From Escherichia coli (GTDB taxonomy: Bacteria; Pseudomonadota; Gammaproteobacteria; Enterobacterales; Enterobacteriaceae), in the NCBI RefSeq assembly GCF_003790525.1, contig NZ_CP033635.1: DNA of 64,000 nucleotides; one strand, given 5' to 3'. How positions within the stretch are numbered: position 1 is the first letter of the stretch; each line of letters starts with the position of its first letter. Of the stretch, positions 5,695 to 50,965 are shown piece after piece. The position numbers and the translations under genes were made by a program. The notes below the pieces were generated by a model, which saw only the letters and a program-made list of their open reading frames with translations, had not been told where the DNA came from and did no database searches.

Positions 5695-6684
5695 TCAGTG
5701 GCTGATTTTTTTCAGCTGTTCTTCACTCAATCCCGTGATTTTCATGATGGTCTGAAGCCCCATTCCTTCAGCCAACATATTACGCGCCGTTTCCAGTTTG
5801 CCTTCCAGTTGTCCTTCGAGTCGCCCTTCGGCACGGCCTTCCATTCTGCCTTCCATTCTGCCTTCTAGCTTACCGCGCTCCATACCCTGGGCAATACCGC
5901 GCTCAAATCCCTTGACTTCCCCTTCCTGCTTCAGTTGTTCAGCCAGTGTCATTATGTTGCCCTCATGCTGTGGCAGCCGCTCCGCCAGCGTCTGCAAAAA
6001 CCTTACCGTCACATGTTCACTGCCGTTCAGCAGATAGTGGAACAGAGCCTTCGCCAGCTCTTCATTCAGTGAAGTCTGTATCAGCTGAACCAGCCTGTCC
6101 ATCTGCAGCATGATGTCGCGGCTGCGGCTGTGTTTCATCAGCAGCGTCAGTGCCCCCATTCGGCGGTGTTGCATTATCTCATCGTCATCCAGTACCGTCA
6201 CGTCCACCAGGTGGAACGGTCTGGTGTAGATTTTAGCAGCAAGTTCCGGATTTCTGAAACACTCCAGCCAGTTCATGCTGTACGGGTACGGGCTCCGCTC
6301 ACCGTGGTAGAATAACAGCGGGATCACCAGCGGCAGCTCATGGTGCTGTTCAAAGTGACGCTGCATCGCCGCCACCGCATATCTGAGCATCCTGAACGCC
6401 ATAAACGCGTTTTCCGTACTCTGGTGTTCCGCGAGGCAATAAATATACCCCTCCTCACCGCTGACGGTCTTCATGCTGAACAGCGCATCGCACGCATACT
6501 GTTTCAGATCCTGGTCCACAAAGGTACAGGGCTCCAGCCGCAGCGTCGACAGATCACACAACTGCCGGTATTCCGCCGGAAGATGCAGTTCAACAAAATC
6601 ACGGGCCACCTCTGCTGAGGCCATAAACGCCCTGAAGGCGGCATCATGCGGCGTGGGCGTATTTTTCTCTTTCCTGCTGCTCAC
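5695..6684 (-). CDS. Rpn-family recombination-promoting nuclease (YhgA-like putative transposase)
   Basis: 329-aa ORF with PDDEXK-like N-terminal region and the characteristic C-terminal EGRxEGR repeat tail of RpnA-E paralogs. Confidence 0.8.
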   Translation of the reverse strand: MSSRKEKNTPTPHDAAFRAFMASAEVARDFVELHLPAEYRQLCDLSTLRLEPCTFVDQDLKQYACDALFSMKTVSGEEGYIYCLAEHQSTENAFMAFRMLRYAVAAMQRHFEQHHELPLVIPLLFYHGERSPYPYSMNWLECFRNPELAAKIYTRPFHLVDVTVLDDDEIMQHRRMGALTLLMKHSRSRDIMLQMDRLVQLIQTSLNEELAKALFHYLLNGSEHVTVRFLQTLAERLPQHEGNIMTLAEQLKQEGEVKGFERGIAQGMERGKLEGRMEGRMEGRAEGRLEGQLEGKLETARNMLAEGMGLQTIMKITGLSEEQLKKISH

Positions 6685-6918: not shown

Positions 6919-7284
6919 ATGATTGATGTCTTAGGGCCGGAGAAACGCAGACGGCGTACCACACAGGAAAAGATCGCAATTGTTCAGCAGAGTTTTGAAC
7001 CGGGAATGACGGTCTCCCTTGTAGCCCGGCAACACGGTGTGGCAGCCAGCCAGCTATTTCTCTGGCGCAAGCAATACCAGGAGGGAAGTCTTACTGCTGT
7101 GGCCGCAGGAGAACAGGTCGTTCCTGCCTCTGAACTTGCTGCTGCCATGAAGCAGATTAAAGAACTCCAGCGCCTGCTCGGCAAAAAAACGATGGAAAAT
7201 GAACTCCTCAAAGAAGCCGTTGAATATGGACGGGCAAAAAAGTGGATAGCGCACGCGCCCTTATTGCCCGGGGATGGGGAGTAA
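6919..7284 (+). CDS. insC: IS2 transposase OrfA (InsC)
   Basis: [56 protein letters not shown]... is the IS2 OrfA sequence. Confidence 0.9.
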
Positions 7285-8147
7285 GCTTAGTCAGCCGTTG
7301 TCTCCGGGTGTCGCGTGCGCAGTTGCACGTCATTCTCAGACGAACCGATGACTGGATGGATGGCCGCCGCAGTCGTCACACTGATGATACGGATGTGCTT
7401 CTCCGTATACACCATGTTATCGGAGAGCTGCCCACGTATGGTTATCGTCGGGTATGGGCGCTGCTTCGCAGACAGGCAGAACTTGATGGTATGCCTGCGA
7501 TCAATGCCAAACGTGTTTACCGGATCATGCGCCAGAATGCGCTGTTGCTTGAGCGAAAACCTGCTGTACCGCCATCGAAACGGGCACATACAGGCAGAGT
7601 GGCTGTGAAAGAAAGTAATCAGCGATGGTGCTCTGACGGGTTCGAGTTCCGCTGTGATAACGGAGAAAAACTGCGAGTCACGTTCGCGCTGGACTGCTGT
7701 GACCGTGAGGCACTGCACTGGGCGGTCACTACGGGCGGCTTCAACAGTGAAACAGTACAGGACGTCATGCCAGGAGCGGTGGAACGCCGCTTCGGCAACG
7801 ATCTTCCGGCGTCTCCAGTAGAGTGGCTGACGGATAATGGTTCATGCTACCGGGCTAATGAAACACGGCAGTTTGCCCGGATGTTGGGGCTTGAACCGAA
7901 GAGCACGGCGGTGCGGAGTCCGGAGAGTAACGGCATAGCAGAGAGCTTCGTGAAAACGATAAAGCGTGACTACATCAGTATCATGCCTAAACCAGACGGG
8001 TTAACGGCAGCAAAGAACCTTGCAGAGGCGTTCGAGCATTATAACGAATGGCATCCGCATAGTGCACTGGGTTATCGCTCGCCACGGGAATATCTGCGGC
8101 AGCAGGCCAGTAATGGGTTAAGTGATAACAGGTGTCTGGAAATATAG
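7242..8147 (+). CDS. insD: IS2 transposase OrfB (InsD)
   Basis: 301-aa ORF with integrase-core catalytic region, overlapping orfA in the -1 frame as in IS3-family elements. Confidence 0.9.
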
Positions 8148-8473: not shown

Positions 8474-9211
8474 TCATGTACAGCGCTGTACCGGGCAATG
8501 GGTAATACCGGTCACAACCGGTAACCCCAGAGACAATGCAACTGTTTTTAACGCAATATACTGGCCGGATGTATCACCCCGGGCAGCCTGAAAACACCTT
8601 TCCACCCGGCATTGTCCGTCAGCACTTATCACCCGCCATGTCTGTTGCAATAAATCCACCCGTTGCGAACATTCTTCATCAACCGTGGCACTGACCCGTG
8701 GATGGCAAATGCTCGTCTGGCTGAGCAGCAACAGGCATCGCATTGTTGCTCCTCCATGTTGTTCCCGCAACCAGCGTAATACCACCGGTGGTGCTGGACT
8801 GGCCGTGTGATTACGTTCAGTAATACGCTCGTGCACCTGTCGGTAAAAGGAAGTACAGAATGCATGAATCTGTTGTCCGTTGATGTTTCCTTCTGCCGAA
8901 TGGAGTGTGAAGTGGACGGCCAGCAGACGCGGCCAGTGATCCACCGCCTGCTGAATAAAACGCCGGATTTCCACCGGCTCTGAAAGTACGGTTTCGGTTA
9001 TTTGCACGATTTGATCCCCTTGAATGTTGCTGAACCGGTGTCGGTACGCAGGAAAGCACGCCGAGACCGGTACGATGCCTGTTACAGCGAAGAACGAGGA
9101 ATGACAGACGGGGGCAGCAGGTCGCCAGCACCAGGGACAGGGCTGATTTCCACAATACCAACGCTGGTATTTTGCACATTGCCAGCGTACCGGCATTACA
9201 ACACGTTTCAT
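8474..9211 (-). CDS. YagK/YfjJ-like (inovirus Gp2-like) protein, third tandem copy; possibly degenerate
   Basis: Central region (RLLAVHFTLH...NGQQIHAFCTSFYRQV...) parallels the two upstream paralogs; an internal Met at 9211 would overlap the alpA-like stop (ATGA). The N-terminal region is Cys/Trp-rich and atypical, so a frameshifted pseudogene is possible. Confidence 0.35.
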   Translation of the reverse strand: MKRVVMPVRWQCAKYQRWYCGNQPCPWCWRPAAPVCHSSFFAVTGIVPVSACFPAYRHRFSNIQGDQIVQITETVLSEPVEIRRFIQQAVDHWPRLLAVHFTLHSAEGNINGQQIHAFCTSFYRQVHERITERNHTASPAPPVVLRWLREQHGGATMRCLLLLSQTSICHPRVSATVDEECSQRVDLLQQTWRVISADGQCRVERCFQAARGDTSGQYIALKTVALSLGLPVVTGITHCPVQRCT

Positions 9212-9444
9212 GCTGCTGCCCCTCGTGATGCCTCGATTCGTTGCTGCATCCACTGCTCCACTTCACTTTTGTACCAGCGGCTGCTGCGCCCCAGTTTGAT
9301 GGGTTTAGGGAAATGGCCTTCACTGATCAGCTTGTAAAACCATTTGTCGGTCATACCAGTGAAGCTGGTGATGTAGTTCATGTCGATCAGGGGATCGTCG
9401 GCACGCAGCAATACGCTGTCGTGACCTGTCATTGAGGTCAACAT
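9208..9444 (-). CDS. AlpA-family prophage regulatory protein
   Basis: Contains ...FTGMTDKWFYKLISEGHFPKPIKLGRSSRWYKSEVEQWMQQRIEASRG, the typical AlpA-like helix-turn-helix of integrative islands. The true start is probably the internal Met at 9381. Confidence 0.7.
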   Translation of the reverse strand: MLTSMTGHDSVLLRADDPLIDMNYITSFTGMTDKWFYKLISEGHFPKPIKLGRSSRWYKSEVEQWMQQRIEASRGAAA

Positions 9445-10115: not shown

Positions 10116-10417
10116 CGCGTCCTGCCCGGGGATGGATGGGCTGACGGGTTACAGGCTGCGGATGAGGTTGATGGAACAGGTGAAGAACCGACGCTGAGCG
10201 GGAATATCAGGGAAGAACATTCAGGGTGAATGAACTCCGTTGACTTCGGTTCACATCATTAAGCAGGGCGGTAAGGTTTTACCGACAGATTGTTTCCGGG
10301 TGCGGAAGCAGATACCGCTGCTGACTTCATGACGGGTTATCAGAATACGGGATAAGGGCATTGGCTGACTCTCTTACCGTGGCATAAGTTCAGGTACCGG
10401 ATACCGTTTTACCGACC

Positions 10418-11149
10418 TCACCTGCCATCCAGCAAACGCCCCGGCCCACGGCTGCAACCATAATTACGCTGACCGGAACCATTATGCTGCTTCGTTTTAT
10501 TTTTCACGAGATAACTGGCTCTGTTCCTGGCTTTCTGCATCGCTGCCACATCACCACGCTTGATCCAGAGAACAGCGGCTTCACCCGGCTTTTTTTCTGA
10601 AGCCTTCCTGGTATCAGAACATCCACCCGACAAAGGCGTGTCATCGGAAGAAGGGCGAGCATCAGACGATGCTGGTTTACGAAAAGGCTTCCACCTGGAA
10701 AAATGGACCAGGCCATCGCCTTGCCAGGGCTCAAGATGCAGAGCGCTGCACCATGCCTCCTGGATCATCGCCGCCAGCGAAGACGGTTCGCTGAAATCCC
10801 CGAGCGAGCACCAGGTATCTTTGTTGAGCAGCAATATCACGTGATAATGTTTCCTGTTTTCTTCCTCTCCGAACTCCCGGCACCAGAAATAACGCAGGCT
10901 GGTTGCATGCACACGCTGACTGGCACGTCGCTTATGCTGCTGGTAAGCCTGGATTTTGGCTTTCAGGGATTCGAAAAAACGAGAAATCACCGCTGAATCC
11001 GGATCGGGATCCATGATGGTGACAGGCATATACTCAGGGAAACGTAAATCCACCCGGATTAACGAGACGGCACGGTGCTGCGACAGGGCACTGTCGAGAA
11101 GGCTGTCAAAACGGGATAACCAGTAAGCATTGTGTATTGGTTGATTCAT
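10418..11149 (-). CDS. YagK/YfjJ-family (inovirus Gp2-like) protein
   Basis: 243-aa ORF with N-terminal ...AVSLIRVDLRFPEYM... motif recalled from CP4-57 YfjJ / CP4-6 YagK. Confidence 0.55.
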   Translation of the reverse strand: MNQPIHNAYWLSRFDSLLDSALSQHRAVSLIRVDLRFPEYMPVTIMDPDPDSAVISRFFESLKAKIQAYQQHKRRASQRVHATSLRYFWCREFGEEENRKHYHVILLLNKDTWCSLGDFSEPSSLAAMIQEAWCSALHLEPWQGDGLVHFSRWKPFRKPASSDARPSSDDTPLSGGCSDTRKASEKKPGEAAVLWIKRGDVAAMQKARNRASYLVKNKTKQHNGSGQRNYGCSRGPGRLLDGR

Positions 11150-11209
11150 GATGAGAGATCTCCGTTGATTTGGATTGACTTCACATCATTAATCACCGCG
11201 GTAAAACTT

Positions 11210-12720
11210 TACGGCATCATGTCATTAAGCAATGCTACAACTCTCTGATTAAGAGTGATTGAAACGGAACAAACCATCCCGGAACGAAAAGATAATCCTG
11301 CACACAGCAGCAAAACACGCAACAACAGCATGAATGGATTTAAAAACGACATGGACGACGAGAAAAGCCTGAAGGGAAAAGGATCCACAGAACATTCGAA
11401 CAAAACACCAGAAACGCAACCAGAACGCTTCCTGGCAATGCAAATCAACAACAACACCAAAACCTACAGCTTAATCACACAACTCAATCACGAATGCGAA
11501 TGACACGTTTAAAACCTGTTTACAGATAACGTCGTAACAAGATCATCCCCATCAGAATCGATTTTCTTATCTTGAGTATGTTACTTTTCAACATACCTAA
11601 ACGATTAACCACCGATAACGTAAATCTCATCTGAATCAAAACACCAAAACCAATCATCACGTTTTCGACAGAAGAAAAACACCACATCATGACAAAAAGA
11701 ATGACCTTACACGGAAAAGAAAAACGTCAGGAATCGTTAATGCATACCTCAATCTGATTGTTATCAAAACATCCAGAAAGTCGTTTAACAGAATCGTCGT
11801 AAGCACATCGAAAAGAACGTCAGATCACCTCAGGAAAGTTCGGGTTGATTTAGCGTAAAGATACTTTTCTCAGCTTAACGTCGAAACACAAACCAAAAAC
11901 CACAAACAACCAAAGCTCAGGAAAGGTTAAACGTCACATCAGTAAAATCGAATAGCAGATTGATTGCTTAAACAGGAAGGATTGTTTTACAGCAGCATTA
12001 AACTGATTTAGTTAACGTAAAATCAGAACTGACAGGTTTACTAACTTGGATGTGTATCAGTTCAAAAATGTGTACAGCAATGCGTAATGAAACACATTTA
12101 AAGGAGATTAATGGGAAAAGTGTGTAAATGCGTAAACATGCACTAATGAATCACTGAAGGAATACATACAAAACGACTTAATGAAAACATAAAAGGACCT
12201 AATGGAAAAGGTGTATATAATACCATATCCGACATTCTCAACATCTTAAGACATCCATGCAGACTGAATGTTGGTTTCAGTTTTTCACGGTAAGCATGAA
12301 TCTTTTCTGTTCAAAAGCAGAGCAGATTTACTCTGGAATTATTTTTCTTACTCCGTATTCTGTACAGCAAAAACTTGTGCTAACTTTACAGCAAACCATC
12401 ATAATCAGCGTCTGTAGTCCCATCGCTTTACCCCATGAAAGTGAATCCATATGATGCGAGAGAGATAAGTCATCGTATCCGGTAAACACTGCTAACCATA
12501 ACATAAGATCATTCAGTCAGTTTTATCTCTGAACTGACGATTATGGCATGCTCATTTATATGGCTCACAGAGGAGTGTTATTATCTGTAAGCTTTAATCA
12601 TCAAATCACATGACCATACCAAACTGGCGCTATATCAGCTCATTTGACACCCCTTCCCTTTAGATTTCTTTATGTGTTTTTTGTCGATAATTAAAATGTA
12701 ATATGAATTTAATATTTTTA
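11210..12720 (+). other. ~1.5 kb non-coding, strand-asymmetric A-rich tract
   Basis: No ORF of 60 aa or more between 11503 and 12257 in any frame; hand counts on sampled 60-nt blocks give roughly 38-45% A versus 12-23% T on the + strand. Confidence 0.6.
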
Positions 12721-12722
12721 CA

Positions 12723-13946
12723 TCATAAACACCATTTAAAACCATTATCCTGAACATCATACAACAATATATTTTTACTAAAGCATGAATTGTATATTTC
12801 TATTAATTCAGGAAAATTATCAGGATTCACCTTTAAATTCACCTGAATGTTACGCCTAATTTCACCCAGCAGTTTTTCATGCGTGAATTTTATTATTTCT
12901 TTATCATAATCTATAAATTCACACATGTTTTTTATGAATTCAAACCCTTTTCCTGTATACAGTTTGATGAATGCCACAAGAGCAAACATTTCAAGATGCA
13001 GCCATAATGCCACGTGAGTTTTTCGCAAAGTATAAAAAATTGAATTCACCTCTTTTTTACTTATTGCTCTTTTGTACTGTGAGTGTGCCAGATTCAGTAG
13101 TGGCAATTCTCTCTCGATAAATGAAAGTGAAAAAGGCGGGTAAATTGATGTCGGAAATATTTTAGGTCTTATGATATTTTCTATTTCCACCATAAATCTA
13201 TCCATAGAAAGAAAATCATTTTCTTTTTTTATTCTGGTATAGAGACCGCCTTTATTTCTTACTGCGACTTTTTTTCGTGCTACCCCCCCCAACACTTCCT
13301 CTAATTGTTTATTTATCTTCGTATCATTAAATACAACCATTCTTCTTATCATCCTGGGAAGGATGATAATATCAGAGCTTGAATCACTTGAACGGTAATT
13401 ATTATTGATCCATGCAACTTCAAGTTGAAGTATCGGAACATTAAATTCTCTGGGGTTAATAACTCTCTGATATTGTTTTTTGTATGCGTTTTTATTAAGA
13501 TATTCTCTGCTGTAGAGAAACTTATAGCAATATAATCTGACAATATCCTTTATGTAAGATTTAAATGAGTCACCTGTAACAGATATATTTTTTCTGCTCA
13601 GTAACTCCTGTGTATTGAGCCATTCCCGTGACCGGAGTACTCCCTTATGAAGACTTTTTCTTACTTGCATTGAACTGCGCAATTGATGTAATATTTTTGC
13701 GTCCTCAACAATTCTCTTTCCCGTTTGATTTCTTGCAGCATCTATTACTCTGTCAAATATCTCCCGGTCCAGACTTTTGTCATATTTACTGATTATACGA
13801 CAAATATTCCTGACCCGACGGTTCTCTTTATTTCGTTTCCATAACTGATAATGATCATCACATAACCTCAGGGCATTTGCCTCATCAAATTCTGAAACAG
13901 GATTGCTGCATTTTTTATTCCGACAGATACCTTTGTTTTTAGCCAT
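12723..13946 (-). CDS. hypothetical protein, 407 aa, very low GC, N-terminal Cys/His cluster
   Basis: Long uninterrupted ORF in a region of roughly 30% GC (hand count on sampled blocks); K/N/I-rich; N-terminus GICRNKKCSNP...LCDDHY suggests a zinc-ribbon-like motif. No family recognised. Confidence 0.6.
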   Translation of the reverse strand: MAKNKGICRNKKCSNPVSEFDEANALRLCDDHYQLWKRNKENRRVRNICRIISKYDKSLDREIFDRVIDAARNQTGKRIVEDAKILHQLRSSMQVRKSLHKGVLRSREWLNTQELLSRKNISVTGDSFKSYIKDIVRLYCYKFLYSREYLNKNAYKKQYQRVINPREFNVPILQLEVAWINNNYRSSDSSSDIIILPRMIRRMVVFNDTKINKQLEEVLGGVARKKVAVRNKGGLYTRIKKENDFLSMDRFMVEIENIIRPKIFPTSIYPPFSLSFIERELPLLNLAHSQYKRAISKKEVNSIFYTLRKTHVALWLHLEMFALVAFIKLYTGKGFEFIKNMCEFIDYDKEIIKFTHEKLLGEIRRNIQVNLKVNPDNFPELIEIYNSCFSKNILLYDVQDNGFKWCL

Positions 13947-14046: not shown

Positions 14047-14931
14047 ATGTCATTCAGCCATTCTTCCCTTTCCGCACACGTAAAATCACATCTGACCTTT
14101 CTTCCTGAAGAAATACGCCAGAAAATCCTTGAATATCTTCACAGCGTCATTCAGTACGAACCCGTGATTGGCATTATGGGTAAATCCGGTGCCGGAAAAA
14201 GCAGCCTGTGCAATGCCATTTTTCAGTCCCGTGTCTGCGCCACGCATCCACTGAACGGCTGCACCCGTCAGGCTCATCGTCTTACCTTTCAGCCTGGTGA
14301 ACGCAGAATGACGCTCGTCGATCTGCCCGGCACTGGCGAAACACCACAGCATGATCAGGAATACCGGGCACTTTACCGTCAGTTACTGCCCGAACTGGAT
14401 CTGATTATCTGGATCCTGCGTGCTGATGAACGTGCGTATGCTGCCGACATCGCCATGCATCAGTTTTTACTGAATGAAGGTGCCGATCCCTCGCGTTTTC
14501 TGTTTGTTCTCAGCCATGCTGATCGCATCCACCCGGCTGAAGAATGGAACAGCCAGAGCAACACGCCATCCCGTCAGCAGGAACTCTCACTGGCAACAGT
14601 AACAGCCCGGGTGGCAACCCTGTTCCCTTCATCATTTCCGGTACTCCCCATAGCTGCCCCTGCAGGCTGGAATCTTCCGGCATTTGTGTCACTGATGATC
14701 CACGCCCTGCCACCACAGGCAACCAGCACGGTTTATTCGCATATCCGGAATGAAAAGCGCACTGCGCAGGATCAGCAACACGCACAGCAGGCTTTTGGTG
14801 ACGCCATCGGCCAGAGCTTTGACGCGGCCATTGCCCGGTTCAGCTTTCCGGCCTGGATGCTGCAGCTTCTGCGTAAAGCCCGTGATCGCATTATCCGCCT
14901 GCTGGTCACACTGTGGGATCGCCTGTTCTGA
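14047..14931 (+). CDS. YeeP/YfjP/YkfA-family GTPase (50S ribosome-binding GTPase domain)
   Basis: 294-aa ORF with P-loop GIMGKSGAGKSS and overall resemblance to K-12 prophage GTPases YfjP/YeeP. Confidence 0.85.
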   Translation: MSFSHSSLSAHVKSHLTFLPEEIRQKILEYLHSVIQYEPVIGIMGKSGAGKSSLCNAIFQSRVCATHPLNGCTRQAHRLTFQPGERRMTLVDLPGTGETPQHDQEYRALYRQLLPELDLIIWILRADERAYAADIAMHQFLLNEGADPSRFLFVLSHADRIHPAEEWNSQSNTPSRQQELSLATVTARVATLFPSSFPVLPIAAPAGWNLPAFVSLMIHALPPQATSTVYSHIRNEKRTAQDQQHAQQAFGDAIGQSFDAAIARFSFPAWMLQLLRKARDRIIRLLVTLWDRLF

Positions 14932-49834: not shown

Positions 49835-50824
49835 TTAGCCACCAATGTACGATAAGTTTTGCGTAATACCGGTGTTGTTTTGATGCAGGAAATGGGTCTG
49901 TTTTTTCTCCCGCAGCGCCGCTGAAATACGCGCTTCCAGCGCCTGTTGCTGGGTATCGTCTTCCAGCAGATCGCGCAGGTTAACGCCGCCTTCACCAAAC
50001 AGGCAGAGATGGAGTTTACCAATGGAGGAAACGCGCAGGCGGTTGCAAGTGGCGCAGAAGTCTTTTTCATACGGCATGATAAGGCCAATCTCTCCGGCGT
50101 AATCCGGATGACAAAAGACTTGCGCGGGACCGTCGCTGCGTTGACGTAATTGGTGGATCCAGCCGCGACGCAGTAGCTCGTCACGCAGAACCTGACCAGA
50201 GATGTGATGCTTACGGAAGAGCTCGCTGCCCTCGCCCGTTTCCATCAATTCGATGAAACGCAGCTGGATAGGGCGATGCTGGATCCAGTTCAGAAAGGTG
50301 TCGAGCTGATGATGATTAACATCACGCATCAGCACGGTATTGACTTTGACCTTCTCAAAACCGGCCTCAAATGCAGCATCGATTCCTGCCATGACCTGGT
50401 TGAATTTATCCTGCCCGGTAATGGCATGAAACTGGCGGGCGTCCAGACTATCAACGCTGACGTTGATGCCAGTAAGTCCAGCATCGCGCCAGTTCGCCAC
50501 ATCGCGTTCCAGACGGTAACCATTGGTGGTGACAGCAATCTGGCGGATAGCGTCGTTTTCTCGCACAGCGGCGATGATATCGGTAAAGTCGCGGCGTAAA
50601 GACGGCTCACCGCCCGTCAGACGGACTTTTTCGGTGCCCAGACTGGCGAAGGCGCGCGTAACCCGGCGAATTTCATCGACGGTAAGAAAGCCTTTATTGG
50701 TGACGCCGCTCGGTTTGTAGCCATCCGGCAGGCAGTAGGTGCAACGAAAGTTACACACATCGGTAATCGACAGGCGCAAGTAGTAAAACTTACGCGCAAA
50801 TGCATCAGTCAGTTGTGAAGCCAT
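49835..50824 (-). CDS. moaA: GTP 3',8-cyclase MoaA (radical SAM)
   Basis: Matches MoaA from [31 protein letters not shown]...; the ORF-track upstream extension reads through the leader and is rejected. Confidence 0.95.
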
Positions 50825-50827
50825 GTA

Positions 50828-50965
50828 CACCTTTCCAGATACGGGAGGCGAAGTCATTTCTTCCTTCGCCCTGGTGGCAATCTTTACGAGCATTGTCACG
50901 GCCAAAGCACCGTATCAGTTGACCCAGGTGCAGAGGCTAGAGTGTTTAGTGGTTAAGCCGATACT
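50828..50965 (-). ncRNA. Moco (molybdenum cofactor) riboswitch in the moaA leader
   Basis: Position directly upstream of moaA, where the E. coli Moco RNA motif is known to lie; the minus-strand leader is GC-rich with paired segments (e.g. GGCGAAGGAAG...CTTCGCC). Boundaries approximate. Confidence 0.55.

What the first reader, a model, noticed from the sequence alone, without database searches (positions are those of the whole stretch)
11210..12720. ~1.5 kb strand-asymmetric A-rich non-coding tract between a YagK/YfjJ-like gene and the low-GC orphan ORF
About 1.5 kb with no convincing ORF in any frame and a strong A-over-T excess on the + strand (hand counts on sampled 60-nt blocks: about 38-45% A versus 12-23% T). 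Bacterial intergenic DNA rarely keeps such skew over this length. It could encode a long structured or A-rich RNA (ARN-type motifs are Hfq-binding sites), or be a replication-origin-like region for the adjacent inovirus Gp2-like (rolling-circle initiator family) proteins, or be an H-NS-silenced foreign spacer.
Basis: seen in the sequence. Interest (0 to 1): 0.7.

Follow-up and report, generated by a model that had tools for sequence, protein, structure and literature searches.

The report
A-rich non-coding spacer of island
This is a real 1-kb stretch of gene-free, lopsidedly A-rich DNA that sits in front of a replication-initiator-like gene in a mobile island carried by about a third of E. coli genomes; it is neither a folded RNA nor a recognisable dead gene, and is most likely a control or insulating spacer whose function nobody has tested.

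Summary
The A-over-T excess covers 11250-12230 (A 41%, T 21%), the strongest skew in the window (over 4 sd). The last 500 bases have none.

The interval is a mosaic:
- a near-invariant 5' region of the Gp2-family (YagK/YfjJ-type, HUH-motif) gene;
- an A-rich core;
- a variable-copy array of short motifs;
- a 115-nt conserved block;
- a cargo-linked 3' flank.

It is non-coding: many stops, no codon periodicity in composition or substitutions. It has no Rfam match and no conserved RNA fold on either strand. It has no (ARN)4 run.

It co-occurs 1:1 with the Gp2-family gene (1877 versus 1878 of 5426 E. coli genomes), not with the 407-aa ORF (974 genomes). It diverges faster than the neighbour's synonymous sites yet keeps its composition. 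Low-frequency variants show a strand-asymmetric substitution spectrum.

The minus strand carries a conserved hairpin plus U-run about 255 nt before the gene.

Best reading (confidence 0.4): a long control or insulating spacer and leader for the island's Gp2-AlpA module. Rivals: an origin for the HUH protein, neutral spacer, or A-rich RNA. No expression data were available. Moderate interest.

The parts
10418..11149 (-). Gp2-family (YagK/YfjJ-type) gene, 243 aa, with HUH-like HYHVILLL and Y-L-V-K motifs. The tract begins at its start codon.
   Evidence: ORF list. Annotated as 'inovirus Gp2 family protein' in RefSeq. Pfam PF11726 and PF23343 precomputed. 30% identical to K-12 YagK and YfjJ. H101, H103, Y213 and K216 are invariant or nearly so. 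Weak PHROG hits to replication initiators. Weak fold matches to parvovirus and AAV Rep nuclease domains. Not related to K-12 YagJ.
11150..11340 (-). Proximal module: the 5' region of the Gp2-family gene (Shine-Dalgarno GGAG, imperfect palindrome, TTAATGATGTGAA box). Nearly invariant over 11150-11210.
   Evidence: Column diversity is 0.01-0.05 over 11150-11209. The first 187 nt are shared by many more genomes than the rest. They are also kept in the L010 class. A related copy lies before the next gene at 10232-10282.
11250..12040 (+). A-rich, C-over-G core (T-rich and G-over-C on the minus strand). Non-coding, unstructured, with no internal repeats.
   Evidence: composition; no coding signal; no structure; no simple-sequence or internal repeat signal; strand-asymmetric substitutions.
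11399..11437 (-). Candidate intrinsic terminator or attenuator for leftward transcription: hairpin 11437-11406 followed by the U-run 11405-11399, about 255 nt before the Gp2-family start codon.
   Evidence: Found by the terminator scan. Folds at -11.7 to -14.4 kcal/mol in three sequence variants, while the plus-strand version gives -7.5 and has no U-tail. 95.8% of cells are paired in 16 distinct variants, but covariation is not significant.
12040..12230 (.). Array of short alternating motifs: RYGTRTAY, and TAATGRAA in this lineage (MTTAGTARA in most others). Copy number varies between lineages.
   Evidence: Alignments. 2-8 and 1-6 copies in 72 distinct sequences, with an exact 34-nt tandem duplication in L097 and the array wholly replaced in L030. 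Within the window the two halves, 12053-12126 and 12147-12217, are 68% alike.
12212..12224 (.). Conserved TGTATATAAT/TATAGTA element: -10-like in both directions (TATAAT at 12216-12221 on the plus strand). It marks the right-hand end of the skewed zone.
   Evidence: Kept in nearly all variants. A minus-strand promoter-like site is found here in 8 of 26 sequences, and no other promoter-like site is conserved anywhere in the tract. The skew ends at about 12250.
12230..12345 (.). Boundary block whose length is conserved (the extracted segment from the -10-like element to the T-run is 138-141 nt in all variants). It is mosaic and ends in CAGAG..CTCTG plus a T-run. Close homology between islands ends at GGAATTATTTT.
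   Evidence: No conserved RNA fold (-1.3 and -4.5 kcal/mol consensus). No codon phase.
12346..12722 (-). Non-coding 3' flank of the 407-aa ORF. Belongs to the variable cargo and shows no A excess.
   Evidence: Composition. Shared only with islands that carry the same cargo, for example L011. Only 53 genomes cover 80% or more of the whole interval.
12723..13946 (-). 407-aa low-G+C ORF. One of several alternative cargo genes next to the GTPase gene, and not an orphan.
   Evidence: Present in 974 of 5426 genomes. Other islands carry 320-376-aa genes here. No PADLOC, PHROG or NCBIfam family.

Best explanation
The interval is the long non-coding control and spacer region of a CP4-57-type integrative island. 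It separates the leftward Gp2-family / 200-aa / AlpA module (the presumed excision and replication genes) from the variable cargo and the rightward GTPase-DUF932-antirestriction module.

Shown:
- It is non-coding and unstructured.
- It is modular: proximal 5' module, A-rich core, motif array, boundary block.
- It is tied to the Gp2-family gene.
- It evolves fast while keeping its composition.

Inferred mechanism:
- It acts at the level of DNA and transcription.
- Transcripts that enter from the cargo side, or that start at the distal -10-like element next to the motif array (a likely operator array), run leftward as a U-rich, G-over-C, untranslated RNA.
- That RNA would be a poor substrate for Rho. 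It is stopped, or regulated, at the hairpin plus U-run about 255 nt before the Gp2-family gene.
- The excision module is thereby insulated from cargo expression and fires only from its own nearly invariant proximal module.
- Rightward antisense RNA would be A/C-rich and unstructured, so Rho would end it readily.
- The A excess on the plus strand is maintained by a strand-asymmetric substitution process. This could be mutation on an exposed minus strand, or selection for that composition.
For: - Non-coding.
- No known or conserved RNA structure.
- Tied to the gene: tract in 1877 genomes and gene in 1878 of 5426 genomes. In every locus inspected it abuts the start codon. The cargo beyond about 12345 differs between islands (407-aa ORF in 974 genomes).
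- The proximal 60 nt are almost invariant, and a related copy lies before the next gene of the operon.
- Minus-strand hairpin plus U-run: present in all 16 variants, 95.8% of cells paired, -12 to -14 kcal/mol; the plus-strand version is weak and has no tail.
- The distal motif array varies in copy number and sits next to the only conserved -10-like element. The skew ends there.
- C/G ratio in 78-nt windows: plus-strand RNA median 1.23, with 37% of windows above 1.5 (window background 14%); minus-strand RNA median 0.81.
- Derived-allele spectrum on the plus strand: A>G 0.105 per site versus T>C 0.207 (p 0.005); G>A 0.375 versus C>T 0.263 (p 0.03). The implied equilibrium is A 0.37, T 0.28.
- Low G+C (37%) in an island whose relatives carry insertion sequences inside the tract.
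Against: - No transcript data of any kind were available, so the direction of transcription is inferred.
- No canonical sigma-70 promoter is conserved in either direction. The promoter scan finds no more sites than chance (7 versus 10.5 expected).
- The hairpin is conserved mainly because its sequence is conserved. Covariation is not significant (83 of 500 shuffles reach the score).
- The hairpin lies in a segment that the L010 class of islands replaces with 1.2 kb carrying a 176-aa ORF. It is therefore not indispensable.
- The C/G bias is moderate.
- Overall the tract diverges faster than the neighbour's four-fold sites (86% versus 91% identity), which could mean little constraint.
- Four-fold sites of the Gp2-family gene show no matching substitution asymmetry, though counts are small.
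- Distant relatives of the island (Enterobacter, Morganellaceae, Rouxiella) keep the gene order without a skewed tract.
Confidence: 0.4

Rival explanations
1. Cis-acting origin (replication or transfer) for the adjacent HUH-type Gp2-family protein. The motif array would be the initiator's binding repeats and the AT-rich core the region that opens. The compositional skew would be the footprint of one strand being repeatedly single-stranded after nicking.
For: - 1:1 linkage with the Gp2-family gene, directly upstream of it, as the intergenic origin lies upstream of gene II in Ff phages (linkage; the Ff layout is from established knowledge).
- HUH and Y-x-x-K motifs are conserved.
- Weak profile and fold similarity to Rep proteins.
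- Short motifs with variable copy number and an exact tandem duplication.
- The substitution asymmetry has the direction expected from deamination of C and A on the minus strand.
Against: - No inverted repeat or DNA hairpin that could present a nick site. Only three weak, widely spaced inverted repeats were found, and the array/boundary junction does not fold.
- The array is wholly replaced in one lineage (L030) and lies about 0.9 kb from the gene.
- The tract and the gene recombine independently (identity correlation 0.33), so there is no sign of co-evolution.
- Distant homologues lack the tract.
- The skew is confined to 1 kb, whereas a displaced strand would cover the whole element.
- The fold match is weak (E 0.016 or more, TM 0.25-0.30).
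Confidence: 0.2
2. Functionless filler: a fast-evolving, largely unconstrained spacer. It may be the remains of long-decayed genes or inserted DNA, whose odd composition is inherited history plus local mutation bias.
For: - Diverges faster than neighbouring synonymous sites.
- Many indels and segment replacements, and insertion sequences tolerated inside it.
- No promoter, structure or repeat signal in the core.
- Absent from distant relatives of the island.
Against: - Lineages only 75% identical keep the same composition and nearly the same length (1061-1208 nt in most).
- Several blocks are nearly invariant inside the tract.
- Low-frequency variants show A is lost half as often as T.
- It is retained next to an intact gene in about 1900 genomes, often in several copies per genome.
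- No homologue shows an intact or frameshifted gene at this place.
Confidence: 0.22
3. A long A-rich non-coding RNA read from the plus strand, divergent from the Gp2-family gene and ending at the hairpin and T-run of the boundary block. It would act as a sponge or regulator, for example through Hfq or ProQ.
For: - A terminator-like hairpin with a T-run on the plus strand at 12306-12345.
- The predicted RNA would be almost structure-free (-14 to -29 kcal/mol per 150 nt), as sponge-type RNAs can be.
- In the L010 class a plus-strand gene precedes the distal part of the tract.
Against: - No (ARN)4 run, against 3.4 expected.
- No conserved plus-strand promoter.
- The plus-strand hairpin is not conserved as a structure.
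- A C-over-G, unstructured, untranslated RNA is the kind Rho terminates early (plus established knowledge of rut sites).
- The direction of the substitution asymmetry is opposite to that expected if the plus strand were the non-template strand (inference).
Confidence: 0.08

Closest known systems
Intergenic region of Ff filamentous phages (f1/M13), upstream of gene II
   Same: A non-coding region directly upstream of a Gp2-family initiator gene. The strand that encodes the initiator is the T-rich one.
   Different: The Ff region is about 0.5 kb and built of strong hairpins (packaging signal, minus and plus origins) with a defined nick site (established knowledge). Here the region is 1.1-1.2 kb with no hairpins or inverted repeats. 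The element is a chromosomal island and is not found in the phage collection.
Long AT-rich upstream control regions of horizontally acquired or master-regulator genes (for example csgD, ler/LEE1, hilA), silenced by H-NS
   Same: Long (about 1 kb), low G+C, gene-free, upstream of a regulatory or excision operon in foreign DNA. Tolerant of insertion sequences.
   Different: Those regions are not known for a strand asymmetry of this size. The high-affinity H-NS motif is absent from the core. H-NS binding is untested.
Iteron-type origins of plasmids and phage-inducible islands (repeats flanking an AT-rich stretch next to the rep gene)
   Same: Short repeated motifs whose copy number varies, next to AT-rich DNA and linked to an initiator-like gene.
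   Different: The repeats are degenerate, lie about 0.9 kb from the gene, are replaced in one lineage and do not co-vary with the protein. The initiator is HUH-type, which normally nicks at a hairpin.
Transcriptional insulators: long untranslated leaders with intrinsic or Rho-dependent terminators
   Same: A hairpin plus U-run on the sense strand before the operon. An unstructured, C-over-G antisense strand.
   Different: No transcript evidence. The leader would be unusually long and U-rich. The terminator lies in a segment that one class of islands replaces.
tmRNA-associated genomic islands of Pseudomonas with intY, alpA, Gp2-like and RadC genes and defence cargo (PMC12595487)
   Same: The same core gene set (Gp2-like next to AlpA, RadC, variable cargo), read.
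   Different: That paper, in the passages read, describes no skewed non-coding tract. The host, integration site and sequences differ.

Membership tests
Described structured RNA family (Rfam) | Match to a covariance model at or near the gathering score | tested here: not met
   Only a chance-level microRNA match outside the skewed zone (E 0.25). No match in the tract in the window or in three other variants at gathering threshold.
Structured non-coding RNA (any) | Secondary structure conserved across homologues, with covariation or folding energy beyond shuffles | tested here: not met
   Single-sequence z-scores are mostly between -1.2 and +1.4 on both strands. Consensus energies are 0 to -10 kcal/mol and the structure conservation index is mostly below 0.4. 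The boundary block gives -1.3 and -4.5 kcal/mol.
Protein-coding gene or recent pseudogene | Open frame, codon periodicity in composition and in substitutions, or an intact homologue elsewhere | tested here: not met
   26-37 stops per frame. No period-3 signal. No substitution phase. Indels are not multiples of three. No intact gene at this place in other classes.
Hfq-binding A-rich RNA | Runs of ARN triplets (four or more) in a transcribed, accessible region | tested here: not met
   Zero (ARN)4 runs in 11250-12230, against 3.4 expected from shuffles. Transcription was not testable.
Rolling-circle (HUH) origin | Adjacent initiator with HUH and catalytic Tyr motifs | tested here: met
   HYHVILLL and Y-L-V-K, with H101, H103, Y213 and K216 invariant or nearly so in 22 homologues. 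Fold support is only weak.
Rolling-circle (HUH) origin | Inverted repeat or hairpin presenting the nick site | tested here: not met
   No suitable inverted repeats. The array/boundary junction does not fold as DNA (0 to -1.7 kcal/mol, no better than shuffles).
Rolling-circle (HUH) origin | Initiator-binding repeats and initiator-dependent nicking or replication | not testable with these tools
   A variable-copy motif array exists, but binding and nicking need experiments.
Intrinsic terminator | G+C-containing hairpin followed directly by a U-run on the transcribed strand | tested here: met
   Minus strand 11437-11399, -11.7 to -14.4 kcal/mol, U-run invariant.
Intrinsic terminator | Pairing maintained by compensatory change; 3' ends in vivo | tested here: inconclusive
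   95.8% of cells are paired, but there is one double change only and shuffles often match the score. 3' ends are not testable here.
H-NS-silenced xenogeneic DNA | G+C well below the host average | tested here: met
   37% against 52% for the window.
H-NS-silenced xenogeneic DNA | High-affinity nucleation motif (TCGATAAATT-like), or H-NS occupancy | tested here: not met
   No match with up to two mismatches between 11150 and 12680. Occupancy is not testable here.
Intrinsically curved DNA | A-tracts phased at about 10-11 bp | tested here: not met
   No periodicity above shuffles for AA, AAA or AAAA.

The most novel reading that the evidence does not exclude
The skewed tract is the working origin region of a so far unrecognised replicative phase of these 'cryptic' islands. 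After excision the HUH-type Gp2-family protein nicks here. The minus strand of the tract then spends much of its time single-stranded (as a displaced strand or in an R-loop). The A/T and C/G skews, and the excess of C-to-T and A-to-G changes on that strand, would be the evolutionary footprint of this exposure.
Probability: 0.12. Interest if true: 0.7.

Novelty: new variant of a known kind. Interest (0 to 1): 0.4.

Why it matters
CP4-57-type islands are among the commonest mobile elements of E. coli. This one is in 35% of complete genomes, with up to seven copies in one genome. They carry variable cargo next to this tract, in the position where K-12's CP4-57 holds AbpAB and RnlAB.

How their excision and replication module is controlled is unknown, and the Gp2-family proteins have no demonstrated function. 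A conserved, unannotated 1-kb element welded to that gene is the obvious place to look for the island's control region or origin.

RefSeq currently marks the tract only with short 'hypothetical protein' calls that are very probably spurious. If the strand asymmetry reflects single-strandedness, it would be a sequence-only indicator of replication or heavy transcription in an element regarded as cryptic.

Tried and rejected
- **Rfam**, at permissive and gathering thresholds: nothing.
- **RNA folding**, sliding single-sequence and consensus, both strands: no signal.
- **Tandem and dispersed repeats in the core**: nothing beyond chance.
- **Cryptic simplicity** as the source of the skew: z 0.2-1.3, rejected.
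- **A-tract phasing or curvature**: none.
- **H-NS motif**: none in the core.
- **(ARN)n motifs**: none.
- **CRESS-like stem-loop** around TATAGTATCAT: does not fold.
- **Shared 8-mers** with the non-coding DNA of distant islands: chance level.
- **Homology to the gene-free DNA next to a second Gp2 paralogue**: none.
- **Small ORF from the ATG at 12299**: 52 codons in the window, but only 4 codons in 21 of about 95 loci, and amino-acid identity is below nucleotide identity. Judged non-coding.
- **Genome-collection scan with the Gp2-family protein**: only two loci returned.
- **Phage collection**: no match. **Plasmids**: four matches.
- **Mistaken link to K-12 YagJ**: I first equated the gene with YagJ because both are 243 aa. 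They are unrelated, and the IS1C argument built on that was dropped.
- **Literature searches** for yfjJ, yagK, yagJ and 'inovirus Gp2': nothing on this tract.
Full report
**What is in the sequence**

The interval lies between a 243-aa gene on the minus strand (10418-11149) and a 407-aa ORF, also on the minus strand (12723-13946). RefSeq names the 243-aa gene 'inovirus Gp2 family protein'.

All six frames are closed: 26-37 stops each, with the longest open stretch 84 codons. The period-3 signal of base composition is absent: 0.02-0.08, against 0.37-1.7 for A, C and T in the neighbouring gene. Variable alignment columns among 26 non-redundant homologues show no codon phase. The interval is non-coding.

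The A excess is real. Over 11230-12230 the plus strand is A 0.414, T 0.213, C 0.209, G 0.165. The AT skew of 0.32 is the maximum among all 1-kb windows of the 64-kb window (mean 0.00, sd 0.077). It is confined to about 11250-12250. The last 500 bases have A 0.30 and T 0.34.

**Surroundings**

Leftward from the tract run three genes:
- the Gp2-family gene;
- a 200-aa ORF;
- an AlpA/excisionase-type gene (9208-9444).

Rightward, beyond the 407-aa ORF, run a GTPase (14047-14931), a DUF932 gene, and antirestriction, RadC and toxin-antitoxin genes. This is the backbone of CP4-57/CP4-6-type islands of E. coli K-12.

The Gp2-family protein is 30% identical to K-12 YagK and YfjJ. It keeps an HUH-like motif (HYHVILLL) and a Y-L-V-K motif, with H101, H103, Y213 and K216 invariant or nearly so in 22 homologues. 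Other similarity is weak:
- profile similarity to phage replication initiators;
- in an AlphaFold model (mean pLDDT 76), weak fold similarity to parvovirus and AAV Rep nuclease domains (E 0.016 or more, TM 0.25-0.30).

It is unrelated to K-12 YagJ, a mistake I made and corrected.

**Distribution and linkage**

| Feature | Genomes (of 5426 complete E. coli) | Notes |
|---|---|---|
| Interval | 1877 | up to seven places in one genome |
| Gp2-family gene | 1878 | |
| A-rich core 11340-12230 | 1401 | by megablast |
| 407-aa ORF | 974 | |
| 80% or more of the whole interval | 53 | includes the cargo-linked end |

In all annotated loci inspected, the tract starts at the start codon of the Gp2-family gene. 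The genes beyond about 12345 differ between islands. So the tract travels with the Gp2-family gene, not with the 407-aa ORF, and that ORF is not an orphan.

The tract is absent from the phage collection and is present on only four plasmids.

Distant homologues of the gene in Enterobacter, Morganellaceae and Rouxiella keep the order Gp2-AlpA and GTPase. They have no comparable skewed tract, although they do have gene-free stretches of 1-1.7 kb. A second, unrelated Gp2-family paralogue in one E. coli island has its own non-homologous 1.4-kb gene-free region with a milder A excess (A 0.38, T 0.27).

**Anatomy from about 100 homologous loci**

- **(a) 11150-11340, proximal module.** The first 60 nt are almost invariant. 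The first 187 nt are shared by more islands than the rest. A related copy precedes the next gene of the operon.
- **(b) 11250-12040, A-rich core.**
- **(c) 12040-12230, motif array.** Two alternating short motifs with 2-8 and 1-6 copies. One locus has an exact 34-nt tandem duplication, and one lineage has replaced the array entirely.
- **(d) 12230-12345, boundary block.** Length is conserved (the extracted segment, which starts at the -10-like element, is 138-141 nt in every variant). Close homology between islands ends after this block.
- **(e) 12346-12722.** Belongs to the cargo.

Most tracts are 1061-1208 nt. About thirty loci replace 11340-11620 with 1.2 kb carrying a 176-aa plus-strand ORF. 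A few tracts carry insertion sequences.

**Constraint**

Mean pairwise identity of the tract is 86%. The adjacent gene is 93% identical, and 91% at its four-fold sites. The two are only weakly correlated (r = 0.33), which indicates recombination between them. There is therefore no global purifying selection on the tract's sequence.

Even so, variants down to 75% identity keep the same composition and similar length.

Polarising low-frequency variants against the majority base gives a strand-asymmetric spectrum on the plus strand:
- A>G 0.105 per site versus T>C 0.207 (p 0.005);
- G>A 0.375 versus C>T 0.263 over the whole tract (p 0.03).

The implied equilibrium is A 0.37, T 0.28, C 0.22, G 0.13. 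The skew is therefore being maintained, by mutation bias or by selection. Seen from the minus strand, the excess changes are C>T and A>G, the pair expected from deamination of an exposed strand (inference from established mutational chemistry). Four-fold sites of the neighbouring gene show no such asymmetry, but the counts are small.

**RNA**

There is no Rfam match. Single-sequence folding is like shuffles on both strands, and the plus-strand RNA would be almost structure-free. Consensus folding across 26 sequences gives 0 to -10 kcal/mol per 120 columns, with a structure conservation index mostly below 0.4. The boundary block gives -1.3 and -4.5 kcal/mol. There is no run of four ARN triplets, against 3.4 expected. 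A long structured RNA and an ARN-type Hfq site are therefore not supported.

**Directional signals**

The only conserved -10-like element is TGTATATAAT/TATAGTA at 12212-12224, where the skew ends. No canonical promoter is conserved elsewhere.

On the minus strand a hairpin (11437-11406) followed by an invariant U-run (11405-11399) lies about 255 nt before the Gp2-family start:
- It folds at -11.7 to -14.4 kcal/mol in three variants.
- The plus-strand version gives -7.5 and has no tail.
- Pairing holds in 95.8% of cells of 16 distinct variants.
- Covariation is not significant.

Plus-strand RNA would be C-over-G: median C/G 1.23, with 37% of 78-nt windows above 1.5 against 14% in the window. 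Minus-strand RNA would be G-over-C, median 0.81.

**DNA-level features**

- No helical phasing of A-tracts.
- No simple-sequence excess.
- No internal repeats in the core.
- No inverted repeats or foldable hairpin of the kind rolling-circle origins use.
- No H-NS high-affinity motif in the core.

**Interpretation**

The best-supported reading (confidence 0.4) is a long non-coding control and insulating spacer for the Gp2-AlpA module. Its parts would be a conserved proximal module, a distal -10-like element with an operator-like array, and a minus-strand terminator or attenuator between them. The composition would make leftward RNA a poor Rho substrate and rightward RNA a good one. The steps from anatomy to function are inference.

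Rivals:
- an origin for the HUH protein (0.2);
- an unconstrained spacer (0.22);
- a plus-strand A-rich RNA (0.08).

**Context from the literature**

Islands in Pseudomonas share intY, alpA, a Gp2-like gene and RadC with variable defence cargo. The paper treats these as likely core functions without assigning a role to the Gp2-like protein (PMC12595487). No paper found in the library addresses this tract.

Noticed in passing
window 11160-11215 and 10232-10290 (minus strand): A roughly 55-nt element is repeated immediately before both the Gp2-family gene and the next ORF of the operon. It comprises an imperfect palindrome (CCGTAAAGTTTTACCG / CGGTAAAACCTTACCG), then TTAATGATGTGAA, then CAACGGAG. 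It looks like a shared operator or 5'-UTR element for one regulator.
   Followed up: partly
window 12299-12457 (+), and equivalents in other loci: An ORF starts at a conserved ATG in the boundary block and runs into the variable cargo (M-x-x-x-x-x-K-x-E-Q-I-Y-S-G-I-I-F...). It is 24-68 codons in most variants but only 4 codons in 21 of about 95 loci, and amino-acid identity is below nucleotide identity. Probably not a gene.
   Followed up: yes
window 11255-11503 (+): RefSeq annotates 57-82-aa 'hypothetical proteins' here in several genomes (for example WP_157806645.1 and WP_000573212.1). Indels of 11, 8 and 1 nt between lineages break the frame, so these calls are very probably spurious.
   Followed up: partly
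L003 1656-3072: A second, unrelated Gp2-family paralogue (188 aa) has its own non-homologous 1.4-kb gene-free region upstream with A 0.38 and T 0.27. It is followed by an H-NS-family gene. This hints that long A-rich upstream regions recur with this gene family in E. coli.
   Followed up: partly
L010 4671-5201, and about 30 metagenome loci: An alternative version of the tract replaces 11340-11620 with 1.2 kb that encodes a 176-aa plus-strand protein of unknown function (weak D5-like regulator hit).
   Followed up: partly
L003 about 6395-6440: A (CATCAC)n microsatellite has expanded inside the tract in one lineage, which shows that replication slippage is tolerated there.
   Followed up: no
window 12723-13946 (-): The 407-aa low-G+C ORF has an N-terminal Cys/His pattern (C-x4-C ... 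C-x2-H). A 376-aa protein at the same position in other islands shares this pattern. The ORF is in 974 genomes and matches no defence, phage or NCBI family.
   Followed up: partly
L003 8028-8882, L006 5692-6480, L009 7087-7896: Many islands carry a 262-284-aa plus-strand gene with an Arc/ribbon-helix-helix-like C-terminus between the tract and the gene next to the GTPase. The window lacks it.
   Followed up: no
L009 4962-6190: An IS2 element is inserted inside the tract in one E. coli genome. The window itself has an IS2 transposase at 7242-8147 and an RpnA-like gene at 5695-6684 to the left of the island module.
   Followed up: no
window 50812-50956 (-): A molybdenum cofactor riboswitch (RF01055, 103 bits) lies far from the finding.
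   Followed up: no
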